This document shows, piece by piece, positions 1,720 through 41,266 of a stretch of 41,963 nucleotides of DNA. A model generated the notes under the pieces. The model was not told the DNA's origin, searched no databases, and worked only from the letters and a program-made list of their open reading frames with translations. The stretch lies in the IMG/VR virus record IMGVR_UViG_2548876958_000014. The stretch is one strand, 5' to 3'. This DNA is from a virus (taxonomy: Duplodnaviria > Heunggongvirae > Uroviricota > Caudoviricetes). Each line of letters opens with the position of its first letter. The stretch's first letter is position 1. The translations under genes and the position numbers were made by a program.

Positions 1720-1720
1720 T

Positions 1721-3469: not shown

Positions 3470-3540
3470 TTATTATATTTTAGGCGTGGTGATTTTTTTT
3501 TGCCATGCCTATTTTATATTTATCATCACAATGATGTTGT

Positions 3541-3957: not shown

Positions 3958-3995
3958 TTTCTTTACCTTCAGGATTATATTAGCTATTCTGATAC

Positions 3996-5225: not shown

Positions 5226-5388
5226 TTTGGGACCCTCGGTTTTTGGACCCTTCTGAGTGGGTCCCATTCAGGGTGCCATAACTCGTAGTTCTCAGCAATT
5301 CTCACTGGACGACAATAGACGTAAAAAAGCCCGCAGAGCTTGTGCTGTGTGGGCTTAGTAGACTTCATTGAACTTCAAACAACTAAAA

Positions 5389-5430
5389 AGTGGTGCTGGC
5401 GGGAGTTGAACCCGCGTCCGAAATTCCTAC
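5389..5430. repeat. Direct repeat of the ssrA 3' end (att core; junction between prophage and neighbouring island)
   Basis: 5394..5430 is identical to 40912..40948 (37 bp); preceding TGGTG also matches but the ssrA GAG is missing, so it is a non-functional 3' fragment of tmRNA. Confidence 0.85.
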
Positions 5431-5624
5431 ATACCATTTTTATTATGGTAAAAACAGTAGATTATGTTTGAAAACAATGTGTTAGTGTTATTTTGTATTT
5501 GCTCGTCTTACGCGTTTTTAATGCTCTGCCGCCAAAGTGCCGCCATTACATCAAGTATCTAGAATAAAATTAGTTAATAAATTACAATTAATATGTTAAT
5601 TGTTCTTGCATTCATAAGTGGGAC

Positions 5625-7361
5625 GTGATGAAAGAAAAAAAATTCGTTAGTGAGCTTTTCCTTGAAAATGGGCAGTTTATTTTAGTCGGTTTGACAGGTC
5701 GAACTGGTTCTGGTTGCACAACAACAGCTAATATTCTTGAAAACGAAAAAACAGTCTTCCCTGATGTAAGTAAATTACAGGGGTTTTACAAGGGATTGGA
5801 TGTCCATCGTTATAATATAGTTAAAAAATTCGCAGAAAATCACTGGGAAAATTTTTACTCAATTAAGGTGAGTGACCTAATCTCAGCGTATCTTCTGATG
5901 TTAACAGTTGAGGAAGCTTCTGAATTCATTCTATCATCTAATAAATCTATCAGTAAAGAGCATTTAGATATTGTATTAACTTTTGGTGTATTCTCAGATA
6001 ATCTCATTTTGACAAGATTTAAAAATGTAATTGAGAATTTGCTTGATCATAATAGTGAATTGAAGCTTGATGAAAAAACGATTAATAAATTTATATCAAT
6101 TTTGAAGTTAGTTAGAAAATTTACTAAAGAATTCAAAGCTGAACTAAATGAGATAAACTCAAATTTATATGTTTCAGCCTATCAGTTAGCAGGTAAGTCA
6201 ATTAGACGTCGTGGGCGTATTGAAGTCGATTTTGAAGATAAAGAGTTTATGCCTAAATCTGTTTTTCATTTGCCGGAAACTATTAATAGGGTTATTAAAT
6301 TAATAAGAAAAAGCAAAAGAGATAACGCATTAATTGTCATAGATGCTATTAGAAATCCATATGAGGCAAAATTTTTTAAGGATAGATATTCTGCATTTCA
6401 TTTAATGTCAATAAATGCCCCAGATGAACATCGAACAAACTATTTGCGGAAACTACATAAGTTTTCAGAAAAGCAGATAGAGGAAATAGATTCTGTAGAG
6501 TCAGGTAAAGGTGATAACTCTTACAAACATCTCACCAATCCAAATGTAACTAAATGTATTGAACTATCAGATATACACATTTTTAACCCAAAAAATGAAT
6601 TTGATAATGACAATATTTTAAAAGCACAATTAGCGTGGTACATCGCACTGATGAAGCATCCTGGTCTGATAACACCTACTGCAATGGAAAGGGTTATGCA
6701 AGTTGCGTATACGGTAAAATTAAACTCTGGCTGTATATCTAGACAGGTGGGAGCTGTAGTAACTGATGGTGATAATTCAATAAAATCAGTTGGTTGGAAT
6801 GATGTTGCCAACGGTCAGATTCCTTGCTCTATGAGATCTCTAGATGGCCTAATGAACGATTTTGATGAAAAAACGTACAGTCATTATGAGAGAAATAATA
6901 GTTCTTTCAGAATTAAAGCTAATGAGAAACTCTTAAATTTTAGGGCGATAGATAAAACTGGTGATATTTATAGAGGCAGGAACTTATCTTATTGTTTTAA
7001 AGATATACATAATGATCTTGATAAAGAGAAAAAAGGTAATCAAGTTCATACACGTGCATTACATGCTGAGGAAAACGCATTTTTGCAACTTGCAAAATAT
7101 GGTGGTATTGGCGTTCTGGGGGGGAAGTTGTATACAACTGCCAGTCCCTGTGAGTTGTGTGCGAAAAAAGCTTATCAGTTAGGTATATCTGAAATTGTAT
7201 TTATTGATCCCTACCCAGGTATAGCTCAAGACCATATTATTAATATAGGTAGTAAGCCACCAAAGTTAATACAATTTAGAGGCGCAATTGGGAAGTCATA
7301 TCACCGACTTTATGAGCAAATTATCCCGATAAAAGATGAGTTAGAATATCTCCTTGAGTAG
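5625..7361 (+). CDS. Fusion protein: N-terminal P-loop nucleotide-kinase-like domain + C-terminal cytidine/dCMP deaminase zinc-binding domain (resembles anti-phage dCTP deaminase architecture)
   Basis: N-terminal GLTGRTGSGCTTTANIL (CoaE/dNK-like P-loop with Cys where Lys is expected); C-terminal HAEENAF and SPCELCAKKA (H-A-E ... P-C-x-x-C deaminase zinc motifs); AT-rich; sits between att repeat and P2-type int. Confidence 0.6.
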   Translation: MMKEKKFVSELFLENGQFILVGLTGRTGSGCTTTANILENEKTVFPDVSKLQGFYKGLDVHRYNIVKKFAENHWENFYSIKVSDLISAYLLMLTVEEASEFILSSNKSISKEHLDIVLTFGVFSDNLILTRFKNVIENLLDHNSELKLDEKTINKFISILKLVRKFTKEFKAELNEINSNLYVSAYQLAGKSIRRRGRIEVDFEDKEFMPKSVFHLPETINRVIKLIRKSKRDNALIVIDAIRNPYEAKFFKDRYSAFHLMSINAPDEHRTNYLRKLHKFSEKQIEEIDSVESGKGDNSYKHLTNPNVTKCIELSDIHIFNPKNEFDNDNILKAQLAWYIALMKHPGLITPTAMERVMQVAYTVKLNSGCISRQVGAVVTDGDNSIKSVGWNDVANGQIPCSMRSLDGLMNDFDEKTYSHYERNNSSFRIKANEKLLNFRAIDKTGDIYRGRNLSYCFKDIHNDLDKEKKGNQVHTRALHAEENAFLQLAKYGGIGVLGGKLYTTASPCELCAKKAYQLGISEIVFIDPYPGIAQDHIINIGSKPPKLIQFRGAIGKSYHRLYEQIIPIKDELEYLLE

Positions 7362-7741
7362 AAATATTATACTCATCCTTCCTGAGGTAAGCTTCAAGAT
7401 GATCAATAAATATTGATCATCTTGAAAGTTAATTGCAGAGTCAAACTAGTAGTCAGACTGAAGCTTCGATAAAAAATGTTTTTGTTTTTTTCATTTTCTA
7501 ATGACTGTTTTTTATTGGTTTCTTTTTAATGTTGCAATGCTATGCTTTTCTACTATTTTTGAATGTGGCATCTTTGATGTTTTTATACAACAAAGATGAG
7601 GGCTTATAGGTTTTTTTGTGATGTAAAAATTATCTTATTCTATAAATAAAACCTAAACTCAGTCTGAAGAGTTAAATGAGAATGGATAACCTGCTGAATA
7701 TTATATTTGTAAATAGTTTGAGTTTGTTTTCATAAGTTACT

Positions 7742-8758
7742 CTATCTTAAGTTGCATAAAGGGTTTTTAGTTACCGCATCTTCAAGGTGATCGGGCGAAA
7801 AGTGGGCGTAAATCATCGTCATTTTTATATCGGCATGGCCCAGAATATCGCGCAGCACCAGTATGTTTCCGCCATTCATCATAAAATGGCTGGCGAATGT
7901 ATGACGTAGCACGTGAGTGCATTGGCCCTCTGGCAGCTCGATGCCAGCTCGCTTTACTGCTCGTTCAAAGGCTTTTCTGCACGGGGTGAATAGCTTCCCT
8001 CTGTTCTTGGGGAGTTCGTCATACAGATCTTGAGATATCGGCACGGTGCGGTTTTTCTTACCCTTCGTCTTGGTATAAGTGATGCGGTATTTAGATAACT
8101 GATGGCCCTGCAGGTTTTCAGCTTCACTCCAGCGTGCGCCGGTGGCCAGGCATATTTTTGCAATCAAAAGCAGACTGGGGTTTTGAGAATCAGCGCAGGC
8201 ATCTAGCAGACGTTTAATTTCTTCCGAGGTCAGGAACGCCAGTTCCCCCTCAGCGATTTTAAATGTTGGCAGCCCGGCGAGAGGATTTGGTGCTGACCAG
8301 TGGCCTAGTTTTTTCAATGTGCCGAAAACCGATGATAGGTTACGTTGCTCAAGATTCACCGTGCGTGGTTTTACTGGCGACATTAGTGTGCCGTCTTCGT
8401 TACGAACGTCACCTTTTAACCGTGCTTCGCGGTATTTCGTAAAGTCACCGGCTGTCAGTTCTGAGGCGATGGGGTCGCCTAGACCATTACAGATAATTCT
8501 AAGTTTCGCCATGAGGCGCTTGGGGTCTGCGAGTGTCTGACCATACAGGGAATACCAAAGCTCAATTAATTCTGATAGGCGTCGCCGATCATCCTTTTCA
8601 CCCAACCACGGTTTTTTATTCACTTCTTCCATTGTGAAGCTTTCAAAAGCAATGGCTTCGCCTTTCGTAGCAAATTGCTTACGCACGCGCTTACCATTGC
8701 GTCCATTGGGATAGCACTCACACAACCATTTTCCGTTCGGCTGTTTTCTGATGGTCAT
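7742..8758 (-). CDS. int: P2/186-type tyrosine integrase
   Basis: 338 aa, matching the ~337-aa P2/186 integrases; conserved stretches CLATGARWSEAE, KYRITYTKTKGKKNRTVPIS, VLRHTFASHFMMNGGNILVL, MTMIYAHF; followed by repressor gene in same orientation. Confidence 0.9.
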   Translation of the reverse strand: MTIRKQPNGKWLCECYPNGRNGKRVRKQFATKGEAIAFESFTMEEVNKKPWLGEKDDRRRLSELIELWYSLYGQTLADPKRLMAKLRIICNGLGDPIASELTAGDFTKYREARLKGDVRNEDGTLMSPVKPRTVNLEQRNLSSVFGTLKKLGHWSAPNPLAGLPTFKIAEGELAFLTSEEIKRLLDACADSQNPSLLLIAKICLATGARWSEAENLQGHQLSKYRITYTKTKGKKNRTVPISQDLYDELPKNRGKLFTPCRKAFERAVKRAGIELPEGQCTHVLRHTFASHFMMNGGNILVLRDILGHADIKMTMIYAHFSPDHLEDAVTKNPLCNLR

Positions 8759-8759
8759 A

Positions 8760-9392
8760 TCAAAGGCTCTTAATGATTTTCAGTGCGCGGCCTACTACCT
8801 CAATGTCATCTAGGCCACACTCAAACGATGAATCATCCTGATGCACTACTAATTTGTTTCCCGGAAGTCGAGTCAATTTAACAATGCTTTTTATCCCGTC
8901 AATATCGACTAACCACATACCATTTACTGGTGGTGTTTGGTTGCGATCTATTAAATAAGAATCACCAGAAGTAGTCACCAGCAGTAGGTTGCTTGAGTCT
9001 GAGGGGAGTATGCTGCTATCAATGATTGCTTTTCCAGCATCGACCAATAAACCACCTTTGAGAGTCGCCTTGTCAATTTCAGGAGATACTAGTTCAGAAA
9101 GAGGTACAACCTTGCTGGAGTTCACGGAGTTGATATTTTTTTTAGGTTCAATGTTTGGACCTGGCTCCCCCTGTCCGGTGGTTAGCCACAGTAAAGAAAC
9201 TCCTGTTTCCAAGGCGCACTGAATCACCCACTCTGCAGGAAAACTATCTCTTAAGTATCTGTTTGCCATGGTGCTTTTTGATGCGCCTAAGTGATCGCAA
9301 AGTTGCTGTCTGGACTTGAAATCATAGGCTGCCATTAGTCTATGGATAGCCTCTCTTCCCCCTGTATTCTCTCCAACCTTTATCTGTATCAT
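8760..9392 (-). CDS. cI: Phage CI-type immunity repressor (186-like)
   Basis: Sits between int and a divergent early operon; N-terminal HTH-like region (SRQQLCDHLGASKSTMANRYLR) and C-terminal domain as in 186 CI; start may be internal. Confidence 0.7.
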   Translation of the reverse strand: MIQIKVGENTGGREAIHRLMAAYDFKSRQQLCDHLGASKSTMANRYLRDSFPAEWVIQCALETGVSLLWLTTGQGEPGPNIEPKKNINSVNSSKVVPLSELVSPEIDKATLKGGLLVDAGKAIIDSSILPSDSSNLLLVTTSGDSYLIDRNQTPPVNGMWLVDIDGIKSIVKLTRLPGNKLVVHQDDSSFECGLDDIEVVGRALKIIKSL

Positions 9393-11110: not shown

Positions 11111-11337
11111 TGGCTGATGCAATGGATCTCGTACAGCAGCGCGTTGAAGAAGAACGCCAGCGCCATATCCGTGCTGCCCGTGCCAAAACACCGGGCGTGT
11201 CTCGCGTGCTTTGCATTGAGTGTGAAGCGCCAATTCCGCCAGCACGCCGCCGTGCCATTCCGGGTGTGCAGCTTTGCATTACCTGCCAGGAAATTGCAGA
11301 GCTGAAAGGCAAACATTACAACGGAGGTGCTGTATGA
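11110..11337 (+). CDS. TraR/DksA-family C4 zinc-finger protein
   Basis: 75 aa with C-x2-C ... C-x2-C (CIECEAPIP ... CITCQ); start overlaps upstream stop (ATGA). Confidence 0.6.
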   Translation: MADAMDLVQQRVEEERQRHIRAARAKTPGVSRVLCIECEAPIPPARRRAIPGVQLCITCQEIAELKGKHYNGGAV

Positions 11338-12191
11338 GCACCATCCTGAAATGGGCGGGAAATAAAACCGCCATTATGTCCGAACTGAAAAAACACCTTC
11401 CTGCTGGCCCGCGACTGGTTGAACCTTTCGCGGGTTCCTGTGCTGTGATGATGGAGACGGATTACCCCAGCTATCTTGTTGCGGATATTAATCCTGATTT
11501 AATCAACCTCTATAAAAAGGTTGCTGCTGATTGTGAGGCATTTATATCTCGTGCCAGAGCTTTATTTGAGGAAGCAAACAGGGAGGTGGCTTATTACAAC
11601 ATAAGGCAGGAGTTTAATTACTCCACTGAAATTACTGATTTCATGAAAGCGGTATATTTTCTGTATCTCAATCGTCATGGTTACCGTGGGTTATGTCGCT
11701 ATAACAAGAGCGGGTATTTCAACATTCCCTACGGTAATTATAAAAATCCGTATTTCCCTGAAAAAGAAATTCGCGCATTTGCAGAGAAAGCCCAGCGGGC
11801 AACGTTTATCTGCGCCAGCTTTGATGAAACGCTGGCGATGTTGAAGGCGGGGGATGTGGTGTATTGCGATCCGCCGTATGACGGCACGTTTTCCGGTTAT
11901 CACACTGACGGCTTCACTGAAGATGACCAGTATCACCTGGCATCCGTTCTTGAACATCGGTCATCAGAAGGACATCCGGTCATTGTTTCTAACAGTGACA
12001 CATCCCTGATCCGTTCGCTGTATCGCAATTTTACTCACCACTACATCAAGGCAAAACGCAGCATCGGCGTAGCAGCTGGTGAGAGTAAATCTGCAACAGA
12101 AATCATCGCTGTTTCTGGGGCGCGCTGCTGGGTGGGATTTGATCCTTCGCGTGGCGTGGATAGTTCTGCCGTGTACGGAGTGCGTGCATGA
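11334..12191 (+). CDS. DNA N6-adenine methyltransferase (Dam-like, orphan)
   Basis: ATG 11334; N-terminal KWAGNK and EPFAGS (SAM-binding) and catalytic DPPY motif; no cognate restriction gene seen. Confidence 0.75.
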
Positions 12192-14602
12192 GCCATGCTG
12201 ATATGAACAACTGCAGCGGCTTTAACGAGGCCGCCGCAGCATTCTCATGGAACAGCCCGAAAAAGGCTATTAACCCTTATCTGGACCCGGCGGAAGTTGC
12301 GCCGGTTTCTGCGCTTTCAAACCTGATCACTCTGTACGCTGCCGATAACGAGCAGGAACAACTGCGCCGTGAGGCACTGAGTGATCAGGTCTGGGAGCGT
12401 TATTTCTTTAATGAATCCCGTGATCCTGTCCAGCGCGAAATGGAGCAGGATAAGCTCATTAGCCGGGCAAAGCTGGCGCATGAGCAGCAGCGTTTTAATC
12501 CAGACATGGTCATTCTGGCAGACGTCAACGCCCAGCCTTCCCATATCAGCAAGCCGCTGATGCAACGTATTGAATACTTCAGCAGCCTGGGCAGGCCAAA
12601 GGCTTATTCCCGCTATTTGCGTGAGACGATTAAGCCATGTCTGGAACGACTGGAGCATGTACGCGAGAGTCAGCTATCCACTTCTTTTCGCTTTATGGCA
12701 AGCCATGAAGGGCTGGACGGCCTGCTGATCCTGCCTGAAATGAGTCAGGATCAGGTGAAACGCCTGTCCACCCTTGTTGCTGCGCATATGAGCATGTGTC
12801 TTGATGCAGCTTGTGGCGATTTGTATGCCACCGATGACGTTAAGCCAGAAGAAATCCGCAAAACATGGGAAAAGGTGGCAGCGGAAACCCTGCGTCTGGA
12901 TGTTATTCCGCCTGCGTTTGAGCAACTCCGTCGGAAAAGAAACCGCCGTAAACCCGTGCCCTATGAACTCATTCCGGGTTCGCTGGCGCGTATGTTGTGT
13001 GCCGACTGGTGGTATCGGAAATTATGGAAGATGCGTTGCGAATGGCGGGAAGAGCAGTTGCGTGCTGTCTGCCTGGTCAGCAAAAAAGCATCCCCCTATG
13101 TCAGCTATGAAGCCGTGATGCATAAACGTGAGCAGCGCCGTAAGTCGCTGGAGTTTTTTCGTTCTCATGAACTGGTGAACGAAGACGGCGACACGCTGGA
13201 TATGGAATATGTGGTAAACGCCAGCAGCAGCAACCCTGCGCATCGCCGCAATGAGATGATGGCCTGTGTTAAAGGTCTGGAGCTTATCGCGGAAATGCGC
13301 GGTGACTGCGCCGTTTTCTACACCATCACCTGTCCGTCACGTTTCCATTCCACGCTAAATAACGGCAGGCCCAACCCAACCTGGACAAATGCGACGGTAA
13401 GACAAAGCAGTGATTATCTGGTCGGCATGTTTGCTGCATTTCGTAAGGCGATGCACAAAGCCGGATTGCGGTGGTATGGCGTGCGGGTGGCTGAGCCGCA
13501 TCATGACGGTACAGTTCACTGGCACCTGTTGTGTTTTATGCGCAAAAAAGACCGCCGCGCCATCACTGCATTACTGCGTAAGTTTGCCATCCGTGAAGAC
13601 CGCGAGGAGCTGGGCAATAACACAGGGCCGCGCTTTAAGTCTGAGTTGATTAACCCGCGCAAAGGAACGCCGACAAGCTACATCGCGAAATACATTAGTA
13701 AGAACATTGACGGGCGTGGTCTGGCTGGCGAGATCAGCAAGGAAACGGGTAAATCCCTGCGTGATAACGCTGAATACGTTAATGCCTGGGCGTCTCTGCA
13801 TCGTGTTCAGCAATTCCGCTTCTTTGGCATTCCGGGGCGTCAGGCTTACCGTGAACTGCGATTGCTGGCTGGTCAGGCGGCAAGGCAACAGGGGGACAAA
13901 AAAGCAGGTGCGCCGGTACTGGATAACCCGCGCCTTGATGCAATCCTGGCTGCTGCTGATGCTGGTTGTTTTGCCACCTACATCATGAAGCAGGGCGGCG
14001 TACTGGTTCCCCGCAAATATCACCTGATCAGAACCGCTTATGAAATCAACGAAGAGCCGACCGCCTATGGCGATCACGGCATTCGTATTTATGGCATCTG
14101 GTCACCCATTGCAGAGGGCAAGATCTGCACTCATGCAGTGAAGTGGAAAATAGTTCGTAAGGCCGTTGACGTTCAGGAGGCGGCAGCCGACCAGGGCGCT
14201 TGCGCCCCTTGGACTCGTGGCAATAACTGTCCCCTTGCTGAAAATTTGAACCAACAAGGGAAAGACAAATTAGCTGATGGGGACTCCAGAACGGATATTA
14301 CCTGTATGAATGACAAGGAGTTGCACGATTACCTGCACAGTATGAGCAAAAAAGAGCGCCGGGAACTGGCTGCAAGGTTACGCCAGGTGAAACCGAAACG
14401 GCGTAAAGACTACAAACAGCGAATTACAGACCATCAGCGACTGCAGCTCGTGTATGAGCTGAGGTCCAGAGGATTTGATGGCAGCGAGAAAGAGGTCGAT
14501 TTACTCCTTCGCGGCGGCAGTATTCCGTCAGGAGCAGGCCTGCGTATCTTCTATCGGAACCAGCGTTTGCAGGAAGATGACAAGTGGCGGAACCTGTATT
14601 AA
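12188..14602 (+). CDS. A: Replication initiation protein gpA (rolling-circle HUH endonuclease)
   Basis: 804 aa; HUH-like [10 protein letters not shown] and Tyr-rich YIAKYISKN catalytic region; P2/186 gene A position. Confidence 0.85.
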
Positions 14603-14696: not shown

Positions 14697-14712
14697 CTGT
14701 AAATATAAACAG
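14697..14712. promoter_or_regulatory. LexA (SOS) box
   Basis: CTGTAAATATAAACAG fits CTGT-N8-ACAG with AT-rich centre; ~45 bp upstream of small ORF and dinI-like gene; second ACAG half-site just downstream (TATACAGTG). Confidence 0.55.
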
Positions 14713-14755
14713 TGGTTATGTATACAGTGTTGCTTGTGGTGTCATAGGAGGAAAG

Positions 14756-14944
14756 ATGCAGGACTATTTTTTGGAGTCTTTGAAGCTCCAGCGCATTGAT
14801 TTTTTTCTTAAGCTTGTAGCGGCTAGTGAGTGTAGTGATGAAGATAAGGGGCTGGCTCTGCAGTGGGTTTCTGAATTGACTGATGAACTCATGGCAAAAA
14901 TCAGAACCCACGAATACAACCGCTCAATGGATGTCATCAGCTGA
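14756..14944 (+). CDS. Small SOS-controlled protein (possible Tum-like antirepressor; unverified)
   Basis: ATG 14756 preceded by AGGAGG RBS; 62 aa; immediately downstream of LexA box; function inferred from 186 organisation only. Confidence 0.35.
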   Translation: MQDYFLESLKLQRIDFFLKLVAASECSDEDKGLALQWVSELTDELMAKIRTHEYNRSMDVIS

Positions 14945-14954
14945 GGTGACTTTT

Positions 14955-15188
14955 ATGCGCATTGAAATAATGATCGATAAAGAGCAGAAGATTAGCCAGT
15001 CTACCCTGGACGCCCTTGAATCCGAGCTTTACCGCAATCTGCGCTCCCTGTATCCCAAAACGGTAATTCGTATCCGCAAAGGTAGCTCTAACGGTGTGGA
15101 ACTGACCGGACTGCAACAGGACGAAGAAAGAAAACAAGTGATGAAAATTATGCAGAAGGTGTGGGAAGACGACAGCTGGCTGCATTAA
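14955..15188 (+). CDS. dinI: DinI-family protein
   Basis: 78 aa starting MRIEIMIDK; ends WEDDSWLH, resembling the DinI C-terminus; co-transcribed from LexA-box promoter. Confidence 0.7.
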   Translation: MRIEIMIDKEQKISQSTLDALESELYRNLRSLYPKTVIRIRKGSSNGVELTGLQQDEERKQVMKIMQKVWEDDSWLH

Positions 15189-15497: not shown

Positions 15498-16577
15498 GTG
15501 GCGTTATCAGATGCGTTAATTACAGTAAATCAAGCAGAACGGGGCGGTGAAAACGCGTTGAGAGGCTTTTCATATCAAGCCTCTTGGGGGATAAATTATT
15601 TACTTGAAAAACAAAAAGAAAAGGAGAAATATTTATTTCTATTTGAATATCATGACGATATTCTTGTATTGAATTCATCTGTTTCTCCGACTAGTGCTGA
15701 GTTTATCCAAGTTAAAACAAAAAAAGATGGTAAATGGACACTCGCAGCAATAGTGAACGCAACAAAAGCTAAACCTAAATCATTTGTTGCAAAACTATAT
15801 GACCATTTCTATCAATTCGTTGGTCACGAAATTTATATGGTTCTGTTATCGAATGCTGGATTCGATTTCTTAAATGATAATAACGAAAAAGGTAGTGATC
15901 TTAATAATGAGCATAAGGAAATTATAATTAGTAAGGTTCAAGAGCAGCTAAATACTAAAAAAGAAGTTCCTCTTGATAAAATAAAATTTAAAACATCTGA
16001 TCTTAGTTTGTTAGATCCTAACTCACATTTATACGGGAAAGTTGCAGTTTTTTTGAATTCTTACTTTGGGGATGATCATGGTATTAATTCAACAGCATTC
16101 ACTAAATTATTAATCAATAAGTGTAATGAGAAGGTTAGTGTTGCTTCTAGTGATATCAAAACTTTTGAAGATTTAGTACTAAAGAAAGGTATATCTTCAG
16201 AATTTGTAACTGATTTATTATCTGGACTCATTGCAAGCATAAAAATAACGCCAAAATGGGAACAGGTTTGTATGTTGCTTGGTACTTTCTCAGATCCTTA
16301 TGAGGGGATTAAATTACAATCAGTTTTTACACGCATATCAATAAAAGTGCTCAATGTCAATTCAATATACTATCTTTATTTTCTGGAATTTCAATCGGCT
16401 CTAAAGAGTATAGAGCATTATCGTGAGATACCTGTTCGAGACCTCTTCTTTACACTCGAAAAAACAATTGCAGCGGGGGACGGGGATTTCTCTTTATTAA
16501 ATCAAGAAGAGAAATTTATGATTGCTATATATGCAATTATAAAGTTGACTTTTGAGGATGTTTCTTATGAAGAATAA
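15498..16577 (+). CDS. Candidate defence effector: nuclease-like protein (possible PD-(D/E)xK / Cap4-like fold; LmuA-like)
   Basis: 359 aa, GTG start; N-terminal GFSYQ and acidic cluster EYHDDILV followed by EFIQVKTKK (D...(E/Q)xK-like); AT-rich; stop overlaps downstream start. Confidence 0.5.
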   Translation: MALSDALITVNQAERGGENALRGFSYQASWGINYLLEKQKEKEKYLFLFEYHDDILVLNSSVSPTSAEFIQVKTKKDGKWTLAAIVNATKAKPKSFVAKLYDHFYQFVGHEIYMVLLSNAGFDFLNDNNEKGSDLNNEHKEIIISKVQEQLNTKKEVPLDKIKFKTSDLSLLDPNSHLYGKVAVFLNSYFGDDHGINSTAFTKLLINKCNEKVSVASSDIKTFEDLVLKKGISSEFVTDLLSGLIASIKITPKWEQVCMLLGTFSDPYEGIKLQSVFTRISIKVLNVNSIYYLYFLEFQSALKSIEHYREIPVRDLFFTLEKTIAAGDGDFSLLNQEEKFMIAIYAIIKLTFEDVSYEE

Positions 16578-18225
16578 CGTTAAATTTAAAAATATAAAAA
16601 TACTCTCATTAAGAGACAGAAAAGCTTTTTCTTATGAGTTTTCAGAAGGGGTTAACTTCATATATGGTACAAATGATGTTGGTAAATCAAGCCTGATTAA
16701 AAGTCTTTATTACACATTAGGTGGAGATTTAAGGCTTGATGATGCTTGGAAATCAGATGATATAGTTACACTGGTGGAAATTAATAACGGGGAAAGTGAT
16801 TTTATTTTTTTGCGTTATAAAAAGATTATTGGTGTCTTTGATTTGAAGAATGATGATCTAGTCGTGTATAACACGATTTCATCATTAGCATCTCGTGTTT
16901 CAAATATATTTGGTTTTAAACTGGAATTACATAATAAATATACGGGTGCTACGACTCAGGCAAACCCTGCTTGTTTGTTTGCCCCATTCTTTATTGATCA
17001 GGATGAAGGATGGAAAGCGGTGATAAATTCTTTCGAAAACATGAGTATGTACTCAGAATGGCAAAAAAACATTCTTTACTATCACTCTGGAATTAAGCCA
17101 AAGGAATATTACACAGTTCAAGGGAAAATCAAAGAAGTTAAAGTTAAAATTTCAGAGTTAGATGGTTTTGTTAAGGTTCTAAAAAGAAGCAAAAGTAAGA
17201 TTGATGAATCTTTTGGTGTGGTTTTATTTGATGTTGATTTGGATTTTTATAAATCAAAGTTAGAACGTATATTAAATGAATATTCTAATTTGAATTTAGT
17301 TCAGACAGAATATAGATTGAATCTTTTGAGGTTATATTCTAGGAAGAATTTCCTTGAGAGTGAACTCAAAGAGATAACTGCGATTATTGATAATGAATTT
17401 GAGATTTCGAATTTTCGAGATGATAATGTTGCTTATTCAGTAAATGAATATAATTATATAAACCATAGAGATGAAATGCTCAAAAACATTGCTGTTCTTG
17501 CAGATGAGAAAAGCAAGATTGAGGAAAATATTCCTAAATTGAATCAAAAGCTAGAAGAGTCAAGGGCTGCTTCAGAGGCGTTGCAGGCGCTGATTTTAGA
17601 AACTCAATCGGAAATAACGCTTCATGATGTTATTAAATCTGCTGCATACCATGAAATTGAATCTACTTTTGTTTCACAGTTAGATGAGTTATTCGTTGAG
17701 ATTGGTCGAAAAGAAGGCGAGTTGACAGAATTACAAGAAGAATTAGAAGTATACAATGATAAGAAAAGAACTGTTAAAATAAATGACTGTTTCAAAGAGT
17801 ATTTCGCTAAAGCTCTTAAAGAGCTTGGTGTCGAAAATACAAAGGTAGGTGGCCTTAGTAGTTATAATAATATTACTAAGGGTAAGACTGGTAGTCGAGG
17901 TCCTCGAGGTATATTTGCATTTCACTACGCGCTACTTAGTGTTATGAAAAGCAACTCTTCAGTTGAGAATATGCCTATAGTAATAGACTCTCCAAAGCAA
18001 CAAGATTTGGATCCAGAGCATACGCATAAGCTTATAAAACTATGCTTGGATGGGTTTTCCCTTACAAATCAGATTATTATTGGCACTGTTGGTTATGAGA
18101 GTTTCATGGATGGTTTTAATAGCATCAAACTTGAAAATAAATATCATCTTTTAAATGATGAACATTATGATAATGTTTATTCTCAATTAATGCCATTGTT
18201 TGAACGGGTGATACTTTCAAGATGA
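16552..18225 (+). CDS. SMC/Rad50-like ABC ATPase with central coiled coil (LmuB-like)
   Basis: Walker A GTNDVGKSS; long heptad-rich middle; C-terminal PIVIDSPKQQDLD (Walker B / D-loop-like); possible starts 16552/16558/16567 overlap upstream gene. Confidence 0.55.
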   Translation: MRMFLMKNNVKFKNIKILSLRDRKAFSYEFSEGVNFIYGTNDVGKSSLIKSLYYTLGGDLRLDDAWKSDDIVTLVEINNGESDFIFLRYKKIIGVFDLKNDDLVVYNTISSLASRVSNIFGFKLELHNKYTGATTQANPACLFAPFFIDQDEGWKAVINSFENMSMYSEWQKNILYYHSGIKPKEYYTVQGKIKEVKVKISELDGFVKVLKRSKSKIDESFGVVLFDVDLDFYKSKLERILNEYSNLNLVQTEYRLNLLRLYSRKNFLESELKEITAIIDNEFEISNFRDDNVAYSVNEYNYINHRDEMLKNIAVLADEKSKIEENIPKLNQKLEESRAASEALQALILETQSEITLHDVIKSAAYHEIESTFVSQLDELFVEIGRKEGELTELQEELEVYNDKKRTVKINDCFKEYFAKALKELGVENTKVGGLSSYNNITKGKTGSRGPRGIFAFHYALLSVMKSNSSVENMPIVIDSPKQQDLDPEHTHKLIKLCLDGFSLTNQIIIGTVGYESFMDGFNSIKLENKYHLLNDEHYDNVYSQLMPLFERVILSR

Positions 18226-31019: not shown

Positions 31020-31621
31020 TGGATAACGCTGCATTAAATAGCGAGTTTATTGCTACAAAGGCGGGAAATATTACCGTCTATAACTATGATGGCGAAACAC
31101 GGGAATATATTTCCACATCAAATGAATATATCGCTGTCGGCGTCGGTATCCCGGCAAGTTCCTGTTTAGATGCTCCTGGCTCATATAAAGCTGGTTATGC
31201 AATTTGCCGTTCTGCAGATTTTAACTCATGGGAATATGTGCCAGACCATCGCGGTGAAACGGTCTATAGCACTGAAACAGGAGAATCAAAAGAAATCACA
31301 GCTCCGGGTGATTACCCTAAAAATACAACCACTATCGCCCCATTAACGCCATACGATAAATGGGATGGTGAGAAATGGGTGACGGATACCGAGGCACAGC
31401 ATAGCGCCGCAGTAGATGCAGCAGAAGCACAGCGCCAGTCGCTGATTGATACTGCAATGGCTTCCATCAGTCTGATTCAACTGAAATTGCAGGCCGGACG
31501 TAAACTGACGCAGGCAGAAACAACCCGGCTTAACGCTGTGCTGGATTACATTGACGCGGTGACGGCAACAGATACCAGCACCGCGCCGGATGTCATCTGG
31601 CCTGAACTGCCGGAGGCGTAG
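31019..31621 (+). CDS. G: Tail fibre assembly protein (gpG/Tfa), active orientation
   Basis: 200 aa; C-terminal DVIWPELPEA typical of Tfa proteins; follows H. Confidence 0.7.
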   Translation: MDNAALNSEFIATKAGNITVYNYDGETREYISTSNEYIAVGVGIPASSCLDAPGSYKAGYAICRSADFNSWEYVPDHRGETVYSTETGESKEITAPGDYPKNTTTIAPLTPYDKWDGEKWVTDTEAQHSAAVDAAEAQRQSLIDTAMASISLIQLKLQAGRKLTQAETTRLNAVLDYIDAVTATDTSTAPDVIWPELPEA

Positions 31622-32036
31622 GCCATTCAATATCTGGCGCACCGGAAGTATCGACCAGTTCCAGTGCGTCCAGATAATCCAGCCACAAATTATATTGCGC
31701 CAGTTCCTCACCTTTCAGACGACCAATTGATGCTTTACCTGGCCATTGTTTACTGTTGATGTATTCGTTGGCCTGATTAATCAATTGCTGCTTTTTAGTT
31801 TCGGCTGATGCAATTTGCTCTTCACGTGTTGGTGGAGGAATATCTGCCCATGCAGGCAGTCCATCTTCTCCGACACATCTGTATTTTCCTTCTGGTGGTG
31901 TGTCATAGAAATATTCCCTGAAAATTACTTCGTCTATATCAACACCTTTTTCTTCAGGCCATTCACCTTTTTCAACATAAAGAGACTGAAGTTCGTAAGG
32001 ATATGCCAGGTTGTTTACGTACAGATATTTCATCAT
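31593..32036 (-). CDS. Alternative tail fibre assembly protein (Tfa'), inverted orientation
   Basis: 147 aa on opposite strand; C-terminus DIEWPTPP parallels gpG; inside invertible segment. Confidence 0.65.
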   Translation of the reverse strand: MMKYLYVNNLAYPYELQSLYVEKGEWPEEKGVDIDEVIFREYFYDTPPEGKYRCVGEDGLPAWADIPPPTREEQIASAETKKQQLINQANEYINSKQWPGKASIGRLKGEELAQYNLWLDYLDALELVDTSGAPDIEWPTPPAVQAR

Positions 32037-32410
32037 TACCAGCCCTTAGCGAAAAACGCACCACCTTCAAGACCATAATTGCAGTGAGCTATGAAGCCGG
32101 TAGTGCTCCAGTTGGTCGCCCCCCACATATTCCCGCCCCCGAAACCACCATCGCACACAATTACAATGCCCGGTGTCTGTGTAAATGGAATCGGGAATGA
32201 AACATTGGCGGATACAGGCCCGTGTTCACCAGGAAAACTAATTCGTCCCCACTGTTCAATTGAACCATCTGGCATTTTTCGCCAGCCTGAACCTGATGCA
32301 TATGATGACATATCAGGTATCTGATTTTCCCCTGTTCCCACATTCCGTTTTGCCGCTTCTCCCAAACCAACGTTTATGAAAATGCAGAGATAACGGCTAA
32401 CTGGCATCAT
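32036..32410 (-). CDS. Alternative tail fibre C-terminal cassette (promoterless; expressed only after inversion)
   Basis: 124-aa ORF whose N-terminal part (VGLGEAA) spans the right crossover site, mirroring LGLGEG in gpH. Confidence 0.6.
32357..32382. repeat. Right inversion crossover site
   Basis: TTCTCCCAAACCAACGTTTATGAAAA; reverse complement matches 30541..30566 at ~21 of 26 positions; 50 bp upstream of invertase gene. Confidence 0.65.
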
Positions 32411-32431
32411 CCCCGGTTTTTATTCAGGGGA

Positions 32432-33004
32432 TTGATCATGCTTATTGGCTATGTACGCGTGTCAACAAATGACCAGAACACCGATTTGCAACGTAATGCA
32501 CTGAACTGCGCGGGATGTGAGCGGATTTTTGAGGACAAAATCAGTGGCACTAAGTCCGACAGACCGGGACTGAAAAAACTGCTCAGGACATTATCGGCAG
32601 GTGACACTCTGGTTGTCTGGAAGCTGGACAGGTTGGGGCGCAGTATGCGGCATCTCGTTACGCTGATAGAAGAGCTGCGCCAGCGTGGCGTGAATTTCCG
32701 AAGCCTGACTGACAGTATTGATACCAGTACCCCAATGGGCCGTTTCTTTTTTCATGTCATGGGGGCCCTGGCTGAAATGGAGCGCGAACTGATAGTTGAA
32801 CGTACCAGGGCGGGGCTTGCTGCAGCTCGCGCCAAAGGCAGAGTAGGTGGACGCCGTCCTAAGTTGACCACCGAACAGTGGGCACAGATTGGACGTTTAC
32901 TCGAGGCCGGAGAATCAAGACAGCGTATTGCACTGATTTTTGATGTAGGTGTTTCCACAATTTATAGAAAATTTCCGGCGAATGAGAGCAATGAATCGCC
33001 CTGA
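32432..33004 (+). CDS. Serine recombinase DNA invertase (Hin/Gin/Pin/Cin family)
   Basis: 190 aa; N-terminus MLIGYVRVSTNDQ with catalytic Ser; C-terminal HTH; close resemblance to Hin/Gin. Confidence 0.9.
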   Translation: MIMLIGYVRVSTNDQNTDLQRNALNCAGCERIFEDKISGTKSDRPGLKKLLRTLSAGDTLVVWKLDRLGRSMRHLVTLIEELRQRGVNFRSLTDSIDTSTPMGRFFFHVMGALAEMERELIVERTRAGLAAARAKGRVGGRRPKLTTEQWAQIGRLLEAGESRQRIALIFDVGVSTIYRKFPANESNESP

Positions 33005-39984: not shown

Positions 39985-40052
39985 TGTGTTCTCAATATTG
40001 ATATTTTATGTATCATTACAATGATTCTGATAGCAAAGGTAGGGATCTGGAT

Positions 40053-40271
40053 ATGATGAATTGTCCGAAGTGTGGTCATGCGGCGCACACAAGGAGCAGT
40101 TTTCAAGTAACAGAAAGCACCAAAGAGCGTTACTGCCAGTGCCAAAATATTAACTGCGGGAGCACTTTTGTTACCCATGAAACAGTGGTCCGGTTTATTG
40201 TGACACCTGCATTGATTGCTACAGCCCCTCCACATCCATTGCCAGGTGGTCAGGGGCATATGAATTTTTGA
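40053..40271 (+). CDS. ogr: Ogr/Delta-family zinc-finger late-gene activator
   Basis: 72 aa from MMNCPKCGHAAHTRSS; C-x2-C ... C-x4-C (CPKC ... CQCQNINC); matches P2 Ogr in length and motif spacing. Confidence 0.85.
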   Translation: MMNCPKCGHAAHTRSSFQVTESTKERYCQCQNINCGSTFVTHETVVRFIVTPALIATAPPHPLPGGQGHMNF

Positions 40272-40297
40272 GAAAGAGAACCTGCTACGGCAGGTTT

Positions 40298-40780
40298 TTA
40301 TTCATCTGGGATCTCACCCGTTTCAAGAAAATGTATAAAGCCAGGCTCATCTATGATGATTGTGCCTTTCATCCTGGCTGCCGATACTTTTGATGGGCCT
40401 GCATTGTAACCGCAACAGAGCATCTGAAGGCTTTGGGTTACAGAGGTTCTTACCGTTAATCCTTGTTCATTCGCCTTATCAACCAATCTTTCTTTATCTG
40501 CTTTCTTAAATCCGGTGAAGCACACATCGAATGTATTTTTTTTCGGACCAGACTGCTTAGTGAGATGTGAGTAGTTTTCGGGGAGGAATGACGCGCATTC
40601 CTGAATGGCTTGTTCTGGTGAATCGTACTGTTTAAGAATGCGGTCTTTTCGGAAGGTTTTTATTCGATCGGTGTTCTTACAAATGCCCTGTATATGATTT
40701 TCGCTATAACTGATGCTCTGTATTGAGTGAACACCGATACGACCATTTGCATTGATGTAAACAAAGTGAAGTTCTTCCAT
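40298..40780 (-). CDS. Small two-domain protein: N-terminal WYL-like domain + C-terminal BRCT-like domain (prophage cargo)
   Basis: 160 aa; TFRKDRI matches the WYL hallmark (R-x-F-R-x-D-R-I); C-terminal FDVCFTGF ... GTIIIDEPGFIHFLE resembles a BRCT fold; lies between ogr and attR, where P2 has no gene. Confidence 0.45.
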   Translation of the reverse strand: MEELHFVYINANGRIGVHSIQSISYSENHIQGICKNTDRIKTFRKDRILKQYDSPEQAIQECASFLPENYSHLTKQSGPKKNTFDVCFTGFKKADKERLVDKANEQGLTVRTSVTQSLQMLCCGYNAGPSKVSAARMKGTIIIDEPGFIHFLETGEIPDE

Positions 40781-40860
40781 GTGAAACCTCTTTGCATGAT
40801 TTCAAGATGGCGACAGGCAAGATGGACGCAAAAGTCTGTCGCCATTTTGCCGCCACTACC

Positions 40861-40893
40861 AAAGAAAAAGGGGCTACGCTTTCACGTAACCCC
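40861..40893 (-). terminator. Rho-independent terminator downstream of ssrA
   Basis: On minus strand: GGGGTTACG-TGAAAG-CGTAGCCCC stem-loop followed by TTTTTCTTT, starting ~10 nt after the tmRNA 3' end. Confidence 0.5.
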
Positions 40894-40903
40894 TTGATTT
40901 ATT

Positions 40904-41266
40904 TGGTGGAGCTGGCGGGAGTTGAACCCGCGTCCGAAATTCCTACATCCTCGGTACTACATGCTTAGTCAGTCTTTACATTCGCTTGCCAGCTGCGGAC
41001 GGACACGCCACTAACAAACTAGCCTGATTAAGTTTTAACGCTTCAACCCCAGGCAGGGCTTCCACGCGATCTCTTTTGGGTTTGACCTCTCTTGATCCCC
41101 GTCCTAAGAGCGGAGGCTAGGGAGAGAGGGCTCTAAGCAGGTTATTAAGCTGCTAAAGCGTAGTTTTCGTCGTTTGCGACTATTTTTTGCGGCTTTTTAC
41201 GAGGCCAACCGCCCCTCGGCATGCACCTTGGGTTTCGCAAATCCCGTCGAATCCAGAATCAGCCCC
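40904..41266 (-). ncRNA. ssrA: tmRNA (SsrA), complete
   Basis: Reverse complement begins GGGGCTGATTCTGGATTCGACGGG and ends ...GGTTCAACTCCCGCCAGCTCCACCA; contains tag ORF GCAAACGACGAAAACTACGCTTTAGCAGCTTAA (ANDENYALAA); 363 nt. Confidence 0.95.

What the first reader, a model, noticed from the sequence alone, without database searches (positions are those of the whole stretch)
40298..40780. Small WYL-like + BRCT-like protein encoded between ogr and attR
The 160-aa product has an N-terminal region with the WYL hallmark (TFRKDRI) and a C-terminal region with BRCT-like features (hydrophobic-FTGF start, GTIIIDE near the end). WYL domains are ligand sensors frequently tied to defence-system regulation, and BRCT domains bind phosphorylated or DNA-end ligands; this fusion in a 160-aa protein at the extreme right arm of a P2-like prophage is unusual and has no P2 counterpart.
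Basis: partly seen in the sequence, partly recalled or inferred. Interest (0 to 1): 0.55.

Follow-up and report, generated by a model that had tools for sequence, protein, structure and literature searches.

The report
Prophage WYL–BRCT DNA-sensing protein
A small gene at the right end of a P2/186-like prophage really does encode a fusion of a WYL-type barrel and a BRCT domain; it belongs to a large, uncharacterised family that P2-like phages carry next to their immunity repressor and integrase, and it probably binds damaged or incoming DNA, though nobody has tested what it does.

Summary

The family is large: 884 clusters at E<=1e-10. In 13 of 15 neighbourhoods read it sits in a P2-like phage, co-oriented with and downstream of the immunity repressor (cI->X->int, cI->X, or, as here, cI->int->attP->X). 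Many relatives carry membrane anchors. Makarova et al. (2014) already listed the WYL-BRCT fusion, but I found no functional study.

Best guess (about 0.35): a lysogeny-module accessory protein that recognises ssDNA/5'-phosphate junctions and acts by occlusion or tethering, that is, superinfection exclusion or defence. Rivals are a DNA-damage sensor for the lysis-lysogeny switch and a helper during establishment. Expression in this prophage is unresolved, because the ssrA terminator precedes the gene and no sigma-70 promoter was found.

The parts
40298..40780 (-). CDS of the 160-aa WYL-BRCT protein (stop codon 40298-40300)
   Evidence: ORF list; homologues; AF2 model with pLDDT 91.7
40619..40780 (-). 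Residues 1-54: WYL-type Sm/SH3-like five-stranded barrel, with conserved Y8 and K41-T-F-R-K-D-R-I48
40532..40618 (-). Residues 55-83: two short helices plus a poorly conserved, lower-confidence linker
   Evidence: AF2 helices 55-62 and 67-73; pLDDT dips to 67 for residues 71-80; variable columns in the alignment
40316..40531 (-). Residues 84-155: single BRCT domain of the RFC1/LigA class, with an invariant T89-G90, K96, K131 pocket and a conserved C-terminal ETGEIP tail
40787..40792 (-). Shine-Dalgarno AAGAGG, 6 nt upstream of the ATG
   Evidence: Read from the sequence; conserved in Cartapus
40279..40296 (.). Hairpin shared by the convergent ogr and WYL-BRCT genes, terminator-like on both strands
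   Evidence: Terminator scan, minus strand; a T-run follows it on the plus strand
40868..40895 (-). Phage-supplied ssrA intrinsic terminator, lying between ssrA and the gene
   Evidence: Terminator scan: 12-bp stem plus T-run; conserved in Cartapus and Yersinia MLG42 attP regions
40911..40948 (.). attR core: ssrA 3' end, identical to 5395-5432
   Evidence: Exact 38-bp repeat; the same core is present in the attP of Cartapus and MLG42
5395..5432 (.). attL core: the displaced copy of the ssrA 3' end
   Evidence: Exact 38-bp repeat
40904..41266 (-). ssrA (tmRNA), co-oriented with and immediately upstream of the gene in the prophage state
   Evidence: ARAGORN
40008..40271 (+). ogr late activator, convergent neighbour
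   Evidence: Pfam Ogr_Delta E 1.5e-20
7742..9392 (-). int (7742-8758) and 186-type cI (8760-9392). They are on the same strand as the gene and lie upstream of it once the phage is circular (cI->int->attP->gene).
   Evidence: Pfam; the same order is seen in the complete phage genomes Cartapus and MLG42

Best explanation
The gene encodes a small, non-enzymatic, two-module protein that reads nucleic-acid structure. An N-terminal WYL-type barrel (the fold that binds ssDNA in DriD, PafBC and CapW) is joined by a flexible helical linker to one BRCT domain. That BRCT is of the DNA-binding RFC1/LigA class and keeps its phosphate pocket intact.

The protein belongs to a large family that P2-like phages (Peduoviridae) carry at the distal end of the lysogeny transcription unit, downstream of the immunity repressor and next to integrase. 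In this phage the gene lies just beyond attP, so integration at ssrA moves it to the right prophage end, directly behind the ssrA terminator.

The mechanism I consider most likely is as follows. The protein is made in lysogens or during establishment. Through BRCT plus WYL it recognises ss/dsDNA junctions, nicks or ends that carry a 5'-phosphate on foreign or damaged DNA. Having no catalytic domain, it acts by occlusion or tethering, for example by blocking end joining, circularisation or replication of superinfecting DNA. In the many relatives with membrane anchors it would do this at the inner membrane. On this reading it is a repressor-linked accessory gene of the superinfection-exclusion or defence type.

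Shown here: the gene is real, both folds, the conserved pocket, the family size, the synteny, the membrane-anchored variants, and the absence of HTH or enzyme domains. Inferred: the ligand, expression in the lysogen, and the biological role. The confidence given (0.35) is for the functional role; the two-domain architecture and the lysogeny-module placement I hold at about 0.9.

For: Pocket. T89, G90 and K131 are 99-100% conserved across 85 members that share at most 50% identity, and K96 is over 80% conserved. They align with the FTG...GPKK segments of yeast Rfc1. The isolated RFC1 BRCT binds recessed 5'-phosphate DNA with Kd about 10 nM, as cited in PMC9293004.

WYL face. At motif level, Y8, H/Y29, K/R41, F43 and R44 correspond to the ssDNA contacts of DriD (Tyr168, Tyr192, Arg204, Trp206, Arg207; PMC9186387) and to CapW R184 (PMC11662680).

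Synteny. Of 15 neighbourhoods read, 13 are P2-like lysogeny modules:
- cI->X->int in Xenorhabdus, a Logan metagenome contig and Vibrio PV94.
- repressor->gp37-like or Flk_N->X in Serratia, Burkholderia and L104.
- cI->X in Mannheimia, L099, L101 and L105.
- cI->int->attP->X in this window, Cartapus and Yersinia MLG42.

Membrane anchors. Of the 150 best representative clusters, 44 carry predicted TM helices. Some have C-terminal anchors instead. Two of the anchored forms were checked and sit in the same slot after cI.

The slot behaves as an accessory slot. In the sister Burkholderia phage phiBP82.2 it holds an unrelated 299-aa membrane protein, gp36. There gp36-38 are highly expressed in lysogens, and gp36 can be deleted without inducing the prophage (PMC13026187).

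No enzymatic or HTH domain was found in Pfam, NCBIfam or PADLOC. This prophage is otherwise rich in defence cargo: Lamassu and a dCTP deaminase.
Against: No experiment bears on this family; literature searches found none.

The protein is not basic (pI about 7, BRCT part 5.8), which is unusual for a DNA binder. The BRCT pocket could instead bind a phosphoprotein or an ADP-ribose-type ligand.

The two arginines that flank the WYL motif and contact ssDNA in CapW (the RWHVR motif) are E27 and Q31 here. The WCX domain that completes the ssDNA pocket in DriD and CapW is absent.

In this prophage an intrinsic terminator lies upstream of the gene, and no sigma-70-like promoter was found in the 87 bp between them. 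Expression in the lysogen is therefore unproven.

The E. coli protein has no membrane anchor. PADLOC matches only the BRCT tail of a candidate system, PDC-S48. The gene's GC content (41.6%) resembles that of cI and ogr rather than the 32-33% of the evident defence cargo. It may therefore be a long-resident phage function rather than a swapped-in defence gene.
Confidence: 0.35

Rival explanations
1. DNA-damage (ssDNA) sensor that tunes the lysis-lysogeny switch. The protein would sit with the repressor and integrase as ImmA does in immR-immA-int modules. When it binds ssDNA or gaps, it would modulate CI, Int/excision or induction through protein-protein contacts.
For: All characterised WYL barrels closest to this one (DriD, PafBC, CapW) sense ssDNA made by DNA damage. 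The gene is packed tightly between cI and int in several phages, with gaps of 2-35 bp. In Burkholderia phiBP82.2, genes in the same operon (gp37, gp38) are needed to maintain lysogeny (PMC13026187). The immR-immA-int analogy is from my own knowledge and was not tested here.
Against: The protein has no HTH, protease or other output domain. This prophage already has a 186-type SOS circuit: a perfect LexA box at 14697-14712 and a DinI-like Tum ORF at 14883-15188. The gene also accompanies CI repressors with an S24 self-cleavage domain. Frequent membrane anchoring is hard to fit to a switch regulator. In phiBP82.2 the gene in the corresponding slot could be deleted without induction, although it is not a homologue.
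Confidence: 0.2
2. Establishment helper acting on the phage's own DNA. The gene would be transcribed with cI-int across attP only while the genome is circular. The protein would bind the cos ends, nicks or gaps of the infecting genome, protecting them from host nucleases or promoting ligation and integration. Integration would then disconnect the gene from the operon.
For: In the E. coli and Yersinia phages the order is cI->int->(cargo)->attP->gene, so integration separates the gene from the lysogenic promoter. The BRCT resembles the nick- and end-binding BRCT of LigA and of a phage heterodimeric ligase. The gene's GC content is like that of the phage's own regulatory genes.
Against: The ssrA terminator hairpin is part of attP and precedes the gene in the circular form too. 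In most other lineages the gene lies between cI and int, or directly after cI, and would stay expressed in lysogens. P2 and 186 establish lysogeny without it.
Confidence: 0.15
3. Abortive-infection sensor-effector. The WYL-BRCT module would be the sensor and the membrane helices found in many relatives the effector, permeabilising the membrane on ligand binding as in CARF-TM proteins. The soluble E. coli form would then need a separate effector.
For: Of the 64 longer representatives, 44 carry 1-3 TM helices joined by a long linker. WYL and CARF were proposed together as ligand sensors of defence systems (PMC4012209).
Against: The protein in this window has no TM segment. No conserved partner gene recurs next to it. 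The TM segments are poorly conserved and look like simple anchors, N-terminal in some proteins and C-terminal in others.
Confidence: 0.08
4. The database names are correct: it is a DNA ligase (PHROG 2561, RefSeq phage records) or an exonuclease (Cartapus annotation).
For: PHROG 2561 'DNA ligase' matches at E 2e-77. There are weak NCBIfam hits to LigA and to a DEDDh exonuclease.
Against: Those hits cover only the BRCT tail of the enzyme models: LigA positions 549-650 of 652 (19.6 bits against a cut-off of 444), and the exonuclease positions 229-307 of 331 (26 bits against 389). No adenylation, OB, zinc-finger, HhH or DEDD domain exists in a 160-aa protein whose two folds are fully accounted for.
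Confidence: 0.01

Closest known systems
wHTH-WYL-WCX transcription factors (DriD, PafBC, CapW, BrxR)
   Different: This protein has no wHTH and no WCX dimerisation domain, so it cannot be a transcription factor of this type. Its WYL triplet is N-H-I here (Tyr in over half of the family). The arginines that flank that motif in CapW are absent. The Pfam WYL model does not score this protein itself.
BRCT domain of RFC1 (p140) and of NAD-dependent DNA ligase LigA
   Same: These are the best sequence matches (E 3e-5 to 5e-5 with the family profile). All are single rather than tandem BRCTs. The T-G...K phosphate-pocket residues are conserved. The RFC1 BRCT binds recessed 5'-phosphate DNA ends, and the LigA BRCT contributes to binding of nicked DNA.
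   Different: Here the BRCT is attached not to a clamp loader or ligase catalytic core but to a WYL barrel. Its net charge is acidic to neutral, and it carries a family-specific conserved ETGEIP C-terminal tail.
WYL-BRCT domain architecture listed by Makarova, Anantharaman, Grishin, Koonin and Aravind 2014 (PMC4012209)
   Same: The domain combination is the same. [quoted passage not shown]
   Different: That paper only lists the fusion. It gives no phage context, no link to the lysogeny module, no membrane-anchored variants and no function.
Repressor-linked prophage accessory and exclusion genes (lambda rexAB, P22 sieB, K139 glo between cI and int). This comparison is from my own knowledge.
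   Same: They share the genomic logic: co-oriented with and downstream of the immunity repressor, expressed in lysogens, dispensable for immunity, often membrane-associated, and variable between sister phages.
   Different: There is no sequence or fold relationship. An exclusion phenotype has not been shown for any WYL-BRCT protein.
Known P2 lysogenic-conversion loci (old, tin, Z/fun)
   Same: These are accessory genes of P2-like prophages that are not required for lytic growth.
   Different: The locus differs: in this prophage the tin/old site holds a Lamassu system. The transcription context differs and there is no homology.

Membership tests
WYL domain (Pfam PF13280) | Five-stranded Sm/SH3-like beta-barrel fold | tested here: met
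WYL domain (Pfam PF13280) | Significant match of this protein to the family HMM | tested here: not met
   No WYL hit for the window protein even at E<=10. Relatives do hit: 5 of 45 (best 1.5e-5) and 23 of 44 longer ones (best 1.2e-8). Membership therefore rests on transitive homology plus fold.
WYL domain (Pfam PF13280) | Signature motifs: the W-Y-L strand and the R-x-F-R-x-D-R-I strand | tested here: inconclusive
   The second motif is present (K41-T-F-R-K-D-R-I48, near-invariant) and aligns to PafBC NFRLDRV. The W-Y-L triplet is N28-H29-I30 here, with Tyr at position 29 in more than 50% of the family.
WYL domain (Pfam PF13280) | Binds ssDNA or another negatively charged ligand | not testable with these tools
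   Only a motif-level correspondence to the DriD and CapW contact residues is available. This needs EMSA or fluorescence-polarisation binding assays.
wHTH-WYL-WCX regulators (BrxR/CapW/DriD/PafBC) | N-terminal winged HTH DNA-binding domain | tested here: not met
   The barrel starts at residue 3. No HTH was found in Pfam or NCBIfam or in the model.
wHTH-WYL-WCX regulators (BrxR/CapW/DriD/PafBC) | C-terminal WCX dimerisation domain that completes the ligand pocket | tested here: not met
   Two short helices, a linker and a BRCT follow the barrel.
BRCT domain (Pfam PF00533) | beta1-alpha1-beta2-beta3-alpha2-beta4-alpha3 fold | tested here: met
BRCT domain (Pfam PF00533) | HMM match above the curated cut-off | tested here: inconclusive
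   The window protein scores 19.5 bits against a cut-off of 21.3 (E 0.0011). 40 of 45 relatives match, and longer relatives reach 7.5e-21. The family profile against PDB hits RFC1 at 3.3e-5 and LigA at 4.5e-5.
BRCT domain, phosphate-binding class | S/T-G in the beta1-alpha1 loop plus Lys at the start of alpha2, forming the phosphate pocket | tested here: met
   T89 is 99%, G90 100% and K131 100% conserved, and K96 over 80%. They align to FTG and GPKK of yeast Rfc1. The ligand itself was not tested.
NAD-dependent DNA ligase LigA (name used by PHROG 2561 and RefSeq phage records) | Adenylation, OB, Zn-finger and HhH domains | tested here: not met
   Only LigA model positions 549-650 of 652 align, at 19.6 bits against a cut-off of 444.
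DEDDh exonuclease (name used in the Cartapus record) | DnaQ-like DEDD exonuclease domain | tested here: not met
   NF004719 aligns only at positions 229-307 of 331 (its BRCT tail), at 26 bits against a cut-off of 389.
Known anti-phage defence systems (PADLOC-DB v2) | Full-length match to a defence protein model | tested here: not met
   Only partial hits on the BRCT region: PDC-S48 at 335-406 of 411 (E 1.8e-7) and the SspE tail.
Core genes of P2-like phages | Present in all or most Peduoviridae, including P2 and 186 | tested here: not met
   Only 28 of 50,697 phage records carry it, and P2 and 186 are not among them. 176 of 5,426 E. coli genomes carry it. A sister Burkholderia phage has an unrelated gene in the slot.

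The most novel reading that the evidence does not exclude
WYL-BRCT proteins are a previously unrecognised class of single-protein, non-enzymatic DNA-end or DNA-gap sensors. P2-like prophages co-express them with their repressor to intercept superinfecting DNA, either tethered to the inner membrane or free in the cytoplasm. In the ssrA-integrating lineage, integration rewires the gene from the cI-int operon to read-through from the very strongly transcribed tmRNA gene.
Probability: 0.2. Interest if true: 0.7.

Novelty: new variant of a known kind. Interest (0 to 1): 0.5.

Why it matters
So far WYL domains have been studied almost only as the sensor half of transcription factors, and bacterial BRCT domains almost only as appendages of LigA.

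Here the two are fused with nothing else. They form a large family (884 clusters at 50% identity with E<=1e-10) that P2-like phages keep beside their immunity repressor, often with a membrane anchor.

If the protein binds ssDNA/5'-phosphate junctions, it would be a minimal reader of DNA structure that works without enzymatic or transcriptional output. That would add either a new mechanism of prophage-mediated exclusion or a new input to the lysis-lysogeny decision.

There are practical consequences as well. The gene is currently mis-named 'DNA ligase' or 'exonuclease' in phage records, and it sits in about 3% of complete E. coli genomes.

Tried and rejected
- **phiBP82.2 experimental data.** I tried to borrow the results for gp36-38 in Burkholderia phage phiBP82.2 (PMC13026187). 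I mapped the published deletion primers and fetched a phiBP82.2-like prophage by exact DNA pattern. gp36 turned out to be an unrelated 299-aa membrane protein. Only gp37 is shared with the WYL-BRCT-carrying phage vB_FUB5a, at 46% identity. That paper therefore informs on the slot, not on this protein.
- **Literature.** Searches for WYL+BRCT, BRCT with prophage, anti-phage or phage defence, and P2-like found only the 2014 listing. One apparent hit, 'Mobile Integrons Encode Phage Defense Systems', was a false text match.
- **Direct PDB sequence search with the N-domain profile.** This gave only a non-significant PafBC hit (E 1.8), so fold comparison was needed.
- **Promoter scan.** No sigma-70-like site was found between the ssrA terminator and the ATG. 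Aligning three attP regions showed conservation of the terminator and of GTGGCGGCAAAATGGCG, but no obvious promoter.
- **attL.** I first looked for it next to int (7200-7800) and found nothing. A window-wide search placed it at 5395-5432.
- **Extensions of longer relatives.** Pfam scans of the N- and C-terminal extensions found no known domain beyond a second BRCT.
- **IMG/VR scan.** It returned almost only near-identical E. coli prophage ends and added little.

Full report
**1. The observation**

A Shine-Dalgarno AAGAGG lies 6 nt upstream of the ATG. A hairpin at 40279-40296 follows the stop codon and is shared with the convergent ogr gene.

The neighbours are ogr (40008-40271 +, Ogr_Delta E 1.5e-20) and the tmRNA gene ssrA (40904-41266 -), followed by smpB. 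A 38-bp piece of the ssrA 3' end (40911-40948) is repeated exactly at 5395-5432. The P2/186-like prophage therefore spans about 5433-40910, and the gene is the last one before attR.

The gene is real. It has 122 homologues in the 90% clusters, at 60-77% identity across enterobacterial genera. It has 28 hits in phage records: E. coli, Yersinia, Vibrio, Burkholderia, Mannheimia and Pseudomonas phages. An exhaustive profile search finds 884 clusters at 50% identity with E<=1e-10. In E. coli it is present in 176 of 5,426 complete genomes. In 170 of these a search with the whole ogr-gene-ssrA arrangement also matched in full.

**2. The two domains**

AlphaFold2 with a 45-sequence alignment gives pLDDT 91.7. 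The model has a five-stranded barrel (residues 3-52), two short helices, a low-confidence linker, and then a beta-alpha-beta-beta-alpha-beta-alpha domain (85-154).

*N-terminal domain.* I folded residues 1-75 alone (pLDDT 93.4, pTM 0.79).
- Foldseek gives the same order, with probability about 1 but E only 0.013-0.2.
- Pfam WYL does not score this protein. It does score 5 of 45 close relatives and 23 of 44 longer relatives, best E 1.2e-8.

No HTH, WCX, nuclease, ligase or other domain is present. The names 'DNA ligase' (PHROG 2561, RefSeq) and 'putative exonuclease' (Cartapus) come from matches limited to the BRCT tails of those enzymes.

**3. What is conserved**

I aligned 85 short members that share at most 50% identity. 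The near-invariant positions are:
- Y8 and T42 (with F43, R44, D46 and R47 conserved in over half of the members) in the barrel.
- F88-T89-G90-F91, G124, A127-G128 (with N126 and P129 above 80%) and K131 (100%) in the BRCT, with K96 above 80%.
- G155-E156 (with T154 above 80%) in a conserved C-terminal ETGEIP tail.

T89-G90 and K131 occupy the positions of the BRCT phosphate pocket. They align with FTG and GPKK of yeast Rfc1. In the RFC-DNA structure, Rfc1 Lys-208 lines the cavity that holds the recessed 5' end. The isolated human RFC1 BRCT was reported to bind recessed 5'-phosphate DNA with Kd about 10 nM (PMC9293004).

On the WYL side, several residues correspond at motif level to the ssDNA-contacting residues of DriD. 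Y8, H/Y29, K/R41, F43 and R44 match Tyr168, Tyr192, Arg204, Trp206 and Arg207 (PMC9186387). The last arginine also matches CapW R184 (PMC11662680). This mapping is an inference from alignment, not from superposition.

Two points count against a canonical ssDNA pocket. The arginines flanking the WYL triplet in CapW are E27 and Q31 here. The WCX domain that closes the pocket in DriD and CapW is missing. In addition, the protein is not basic (pI about 7).

**4. Genomic context: the main new result**

In complete phage genomes the gene is co-oriented with the immunity repressor and lies downstream of it.

| Arrangement | Where seen |
|---|---|
| cI -> int -> (variable cargo) -> attP -> X, convergent with ogr/D | This window, Escherichia phage Cartapus, Yersinia phage MLG42 |
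| cI -> X -> int | Xenorhabdus prophage and a metagenomic relative, with gaps of 2-35 bp |
| cI -> X -> hypothetical -> int | Vibrio phage PV94 |
| cI -> X | Mannheimia PHL101, 4 bp after cI with its ribosome-binding site inside cI |
| HTH repressor -> gp37-like or Flk_N protein -> X | Serratia, Burkholderia vB_FUB5a, L104 |

Variants with N-terminal transmembrane helices (P0182, P0240) sit directly after S24-type CI repressors in HP1-like prophages. So does one variant with a large C-terminal extension, P0132; another, P0159, follows the repressor and a 268-aa protein.

In all, 13 of the 15 neighbourhoods I read are P2-like lysogeny modules. The two exceptions are an integrase-bearing island next to an Mrr-like nuclease and a plain chromosomal site.

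Of the 150 best representative clusters, 86 are minimal soluble forms of 200 aa or less. Of the 64 longer ones, 44 have predicted TM helices followed by a long low-complexity linker, and some have C-terminal anchors instead. Lys/Arg-rich segments after the last helix suggest that the WYL-BRCT module is cytoplasmic (my inference).

**5. Consequence of the attP position in this phage**

Aligning the window with the attP regions of Cartapus and MLG42 shows that all three carry the ssrA 3' end plus the ssrA terminator hairpin just upstream of the gene. After integration the gene sits behind the host ssrA, in the same orientation, separated from it by that terminator (40868-40895).

No sigma-70-like promoter was detected in the 87 bp between the terminator and the ATG. 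I cannot say whether the gene is expressed in this lysogen by read-through from the strongly transcribed ssrA, from an unrecognised promoter, or mainly from the circular form. This is the weakest link in any functional model for this particular phage.

**6. Experimental literature**

I found none on this family. Makarova et al. (2014) list BRCT among the domains fused to WYL (PMC4012209).

A 2026 paper on Burkholderia phage phiBP82.2 reports three relevant results. The three genes after the switch region (gp38 HTH, gp37, gp36) are highly expressed in lysogens. Deleting gp37 or gp38 triggers lytic growth. gp36 can be deleted in the lysogen (PMC13026187).

I mapped the deletion primers and retrieved a phiBP82.2-like prophage. 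gp37 is 46% identical to the protein upstream of WYL-BRCT in vB_FUB5a. gp36, however, is an unrelated 299-aa membrane protein. The paper therefore shows only that this slot is lysogen-expressed, swappable and dispensable for maintaining lysogeny.

**7. Mechanism**

*Best-supported reading (about 0.35 for the role, about 0.9 for the architecture).* This is a lysogeny-module accessory protein that recognises ss/dsDNA junctions, nicks or ends bearing a 5'-phosphate, using BRCT plus WYL. Lacking any catalytic or transcriptional output, it would act by occlusion or tethering on superinfecting or damaged DNA. That makes it an exclusion- or defence-type function, performed at the membrane in the anchored relatives. 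Supporting points:
- co-transcription with the repressor;
- recurrent membrane anchoring;
- the invariant phosphate pocket;
- replacement by an unrelated membrane protein in a sister phage;
- the defence-rich character of this prophage.

*Rival 1 (0.2): a DNA-damage sensor feeding the lysis-lysogeny switch.* The biology of WYL domains favours it. Against it are the lack of any output domain and the 186-type SOS circuit already present here: a LexA box CTGTAAATATAAACAG at 14697-14712 and a DinI-like Tum ORF at 14883-15188. The gene also co-occurs with self-cleaving S24 repressors, and many relatives are membrane-anchored.

*Rival 2 (0.15): an establishment helper acting on the phage's own ends.* The order cI-int-attP-gene favours it. 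Against it are the terminator in attP and the cI-X-int order in other lineages.

*Rival 3 (0.08): an abortive-infection sensor-effector that uses the TM helices.* This does not fit the soluble E. coli form.

*The ligase or exonuclease annotation* is rejected.

**8. Novelty and verdict**

The architecture was catalogued in 2014, and NCBI now calls the protein 'BRCT domain-containing protein'. It is therefore not categorically new.

What appears to be unreported:
- the size of the family;
- its consistent placement in the repressor-integrase module of Peduoviridae;
- the membrane-anchored and extended variants in the same slot;
- the invariant phosphate pocket;
- the placement behind ssrA created by integration.

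I rate it a new variant of a known kind and set interest at 0.5. It is a well-defined, testable, widespread unknown in a classic phage group, but no surprising mechanism has been demonstrated.

Noticed in passing
window 15498-18225: A Lamassu defence system occupies the P2 tin/old hotspot between replication gene A (12188-14602) and the portal gene. It consists of LmuA with a Cap4-type nuclease domain (15498-16577, PADLOC E 4e-143) and LmuB (16552-18225, E 6e-253). Its GC content is 32%, against 55% for the structural genes.
   Followed up: partly
window 5625-7361: A 578-aa protein matches the PADLOC 'dCTPase' defence model (dCTP deaminase; E 1e-145) and has a Pfam cytidine/dCMP deaminase domain. 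It lies between attL and int, with GC 33%. In phage Cartapus the same int-attP slot holds a different gene, annotated as a RES-domain protein, so int-attP looks like a third cargo hotspot in this phage group.
   Followed up: partly
window 1-5432: A second mobile element lies in tandem at ssrA. A P4-type integrase (3996-5267, minus strand) sits next to the displaced ssrA 3' copy (5395-5432). Further left is a gene pair with HEF_HK/HATPase_c (1-1719) and Response_reg_2 (1703-3469) domains. These genes have no PADLOC hit.
   Followed up: no
window 14697-15188: A perfect LexA box (CTGTAAATATAAACAG, 14697-14712) lies upstream of an ORF with a DinI-like domain (14883-15188, Pfam E 9e-23). This is the arrangement of the phage 186 Tum antirepressor, so the prophage is probably SOS-inducible.
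   Followed up: partly
window 40807-40845: A 10-bp inverted repeat (ATGGCGACAG ... CTGTCGCCAT, 19-nt spacer) lies between the ssrA terminator and the start of the WYL-BRCT gene. It is identical in Cartapus but not conserved in Yersinia phage MLG42. The adjacent GTGGCGGCAAAATGGCG is conserved in all three. It could be an Int arm site, an operator or an RNA structure.
   Followed up: partly
window 31593-33004: A serine-recombinase invertase (32432-33004; Resolvase plus HTH_7) sits next to oppositely oriented genes for a tail-fibre C-terminal segment and a tail-fibre assembly protein (31593-32410). This suggests a host-range switch that inverts the tail-fibre genes.
   Followed up: no
window 11274-12191: A Dam-like D12-class N6-adenine methyltransferase (Pfam E 6e-77) lies in the early operon just upstream of gene A.
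   Followed up: no
L098:73-2251 (phiBP82.2-like Burkholderia prophage) compared with L004:2704-4507 (vB_FUB5a): The published 'lysogeny regulatory cassette' gp38-gp37-gp36 shares gp37 (46% identity) with the WYL-BRCT-carrying phage. Its last gene, gp36, is an unrelated 299-aa protein with predicted membrane helices. The last position of this operon is therefore a swap site.
   Followed up: yes
Relatives P0159, P0183, P0186, P0173; and P0196, P0172, P0251, P0254, P0227: Two recurrent C-terminal extensions of unknown fold follow the WYL-BRCT module in some P2-like prophage proteins. One is a domain of about 230 aa. The other is a domain of about 100-130 aa with a conserved 'F-x-E-G-D-V-F-Y ... 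LQV ... WL-x-TG' pattern. Neither matches Pfam.
   Followed up: no
Public records NC_049342.1, NC_008201.1, NC_070909.1; PHROG 2561: Homologues are annotated 'DNA ligase' or 'putative exonuclease protein' on the strength of the BRCT domain alone. These names are wrong.
   Followed up: yes
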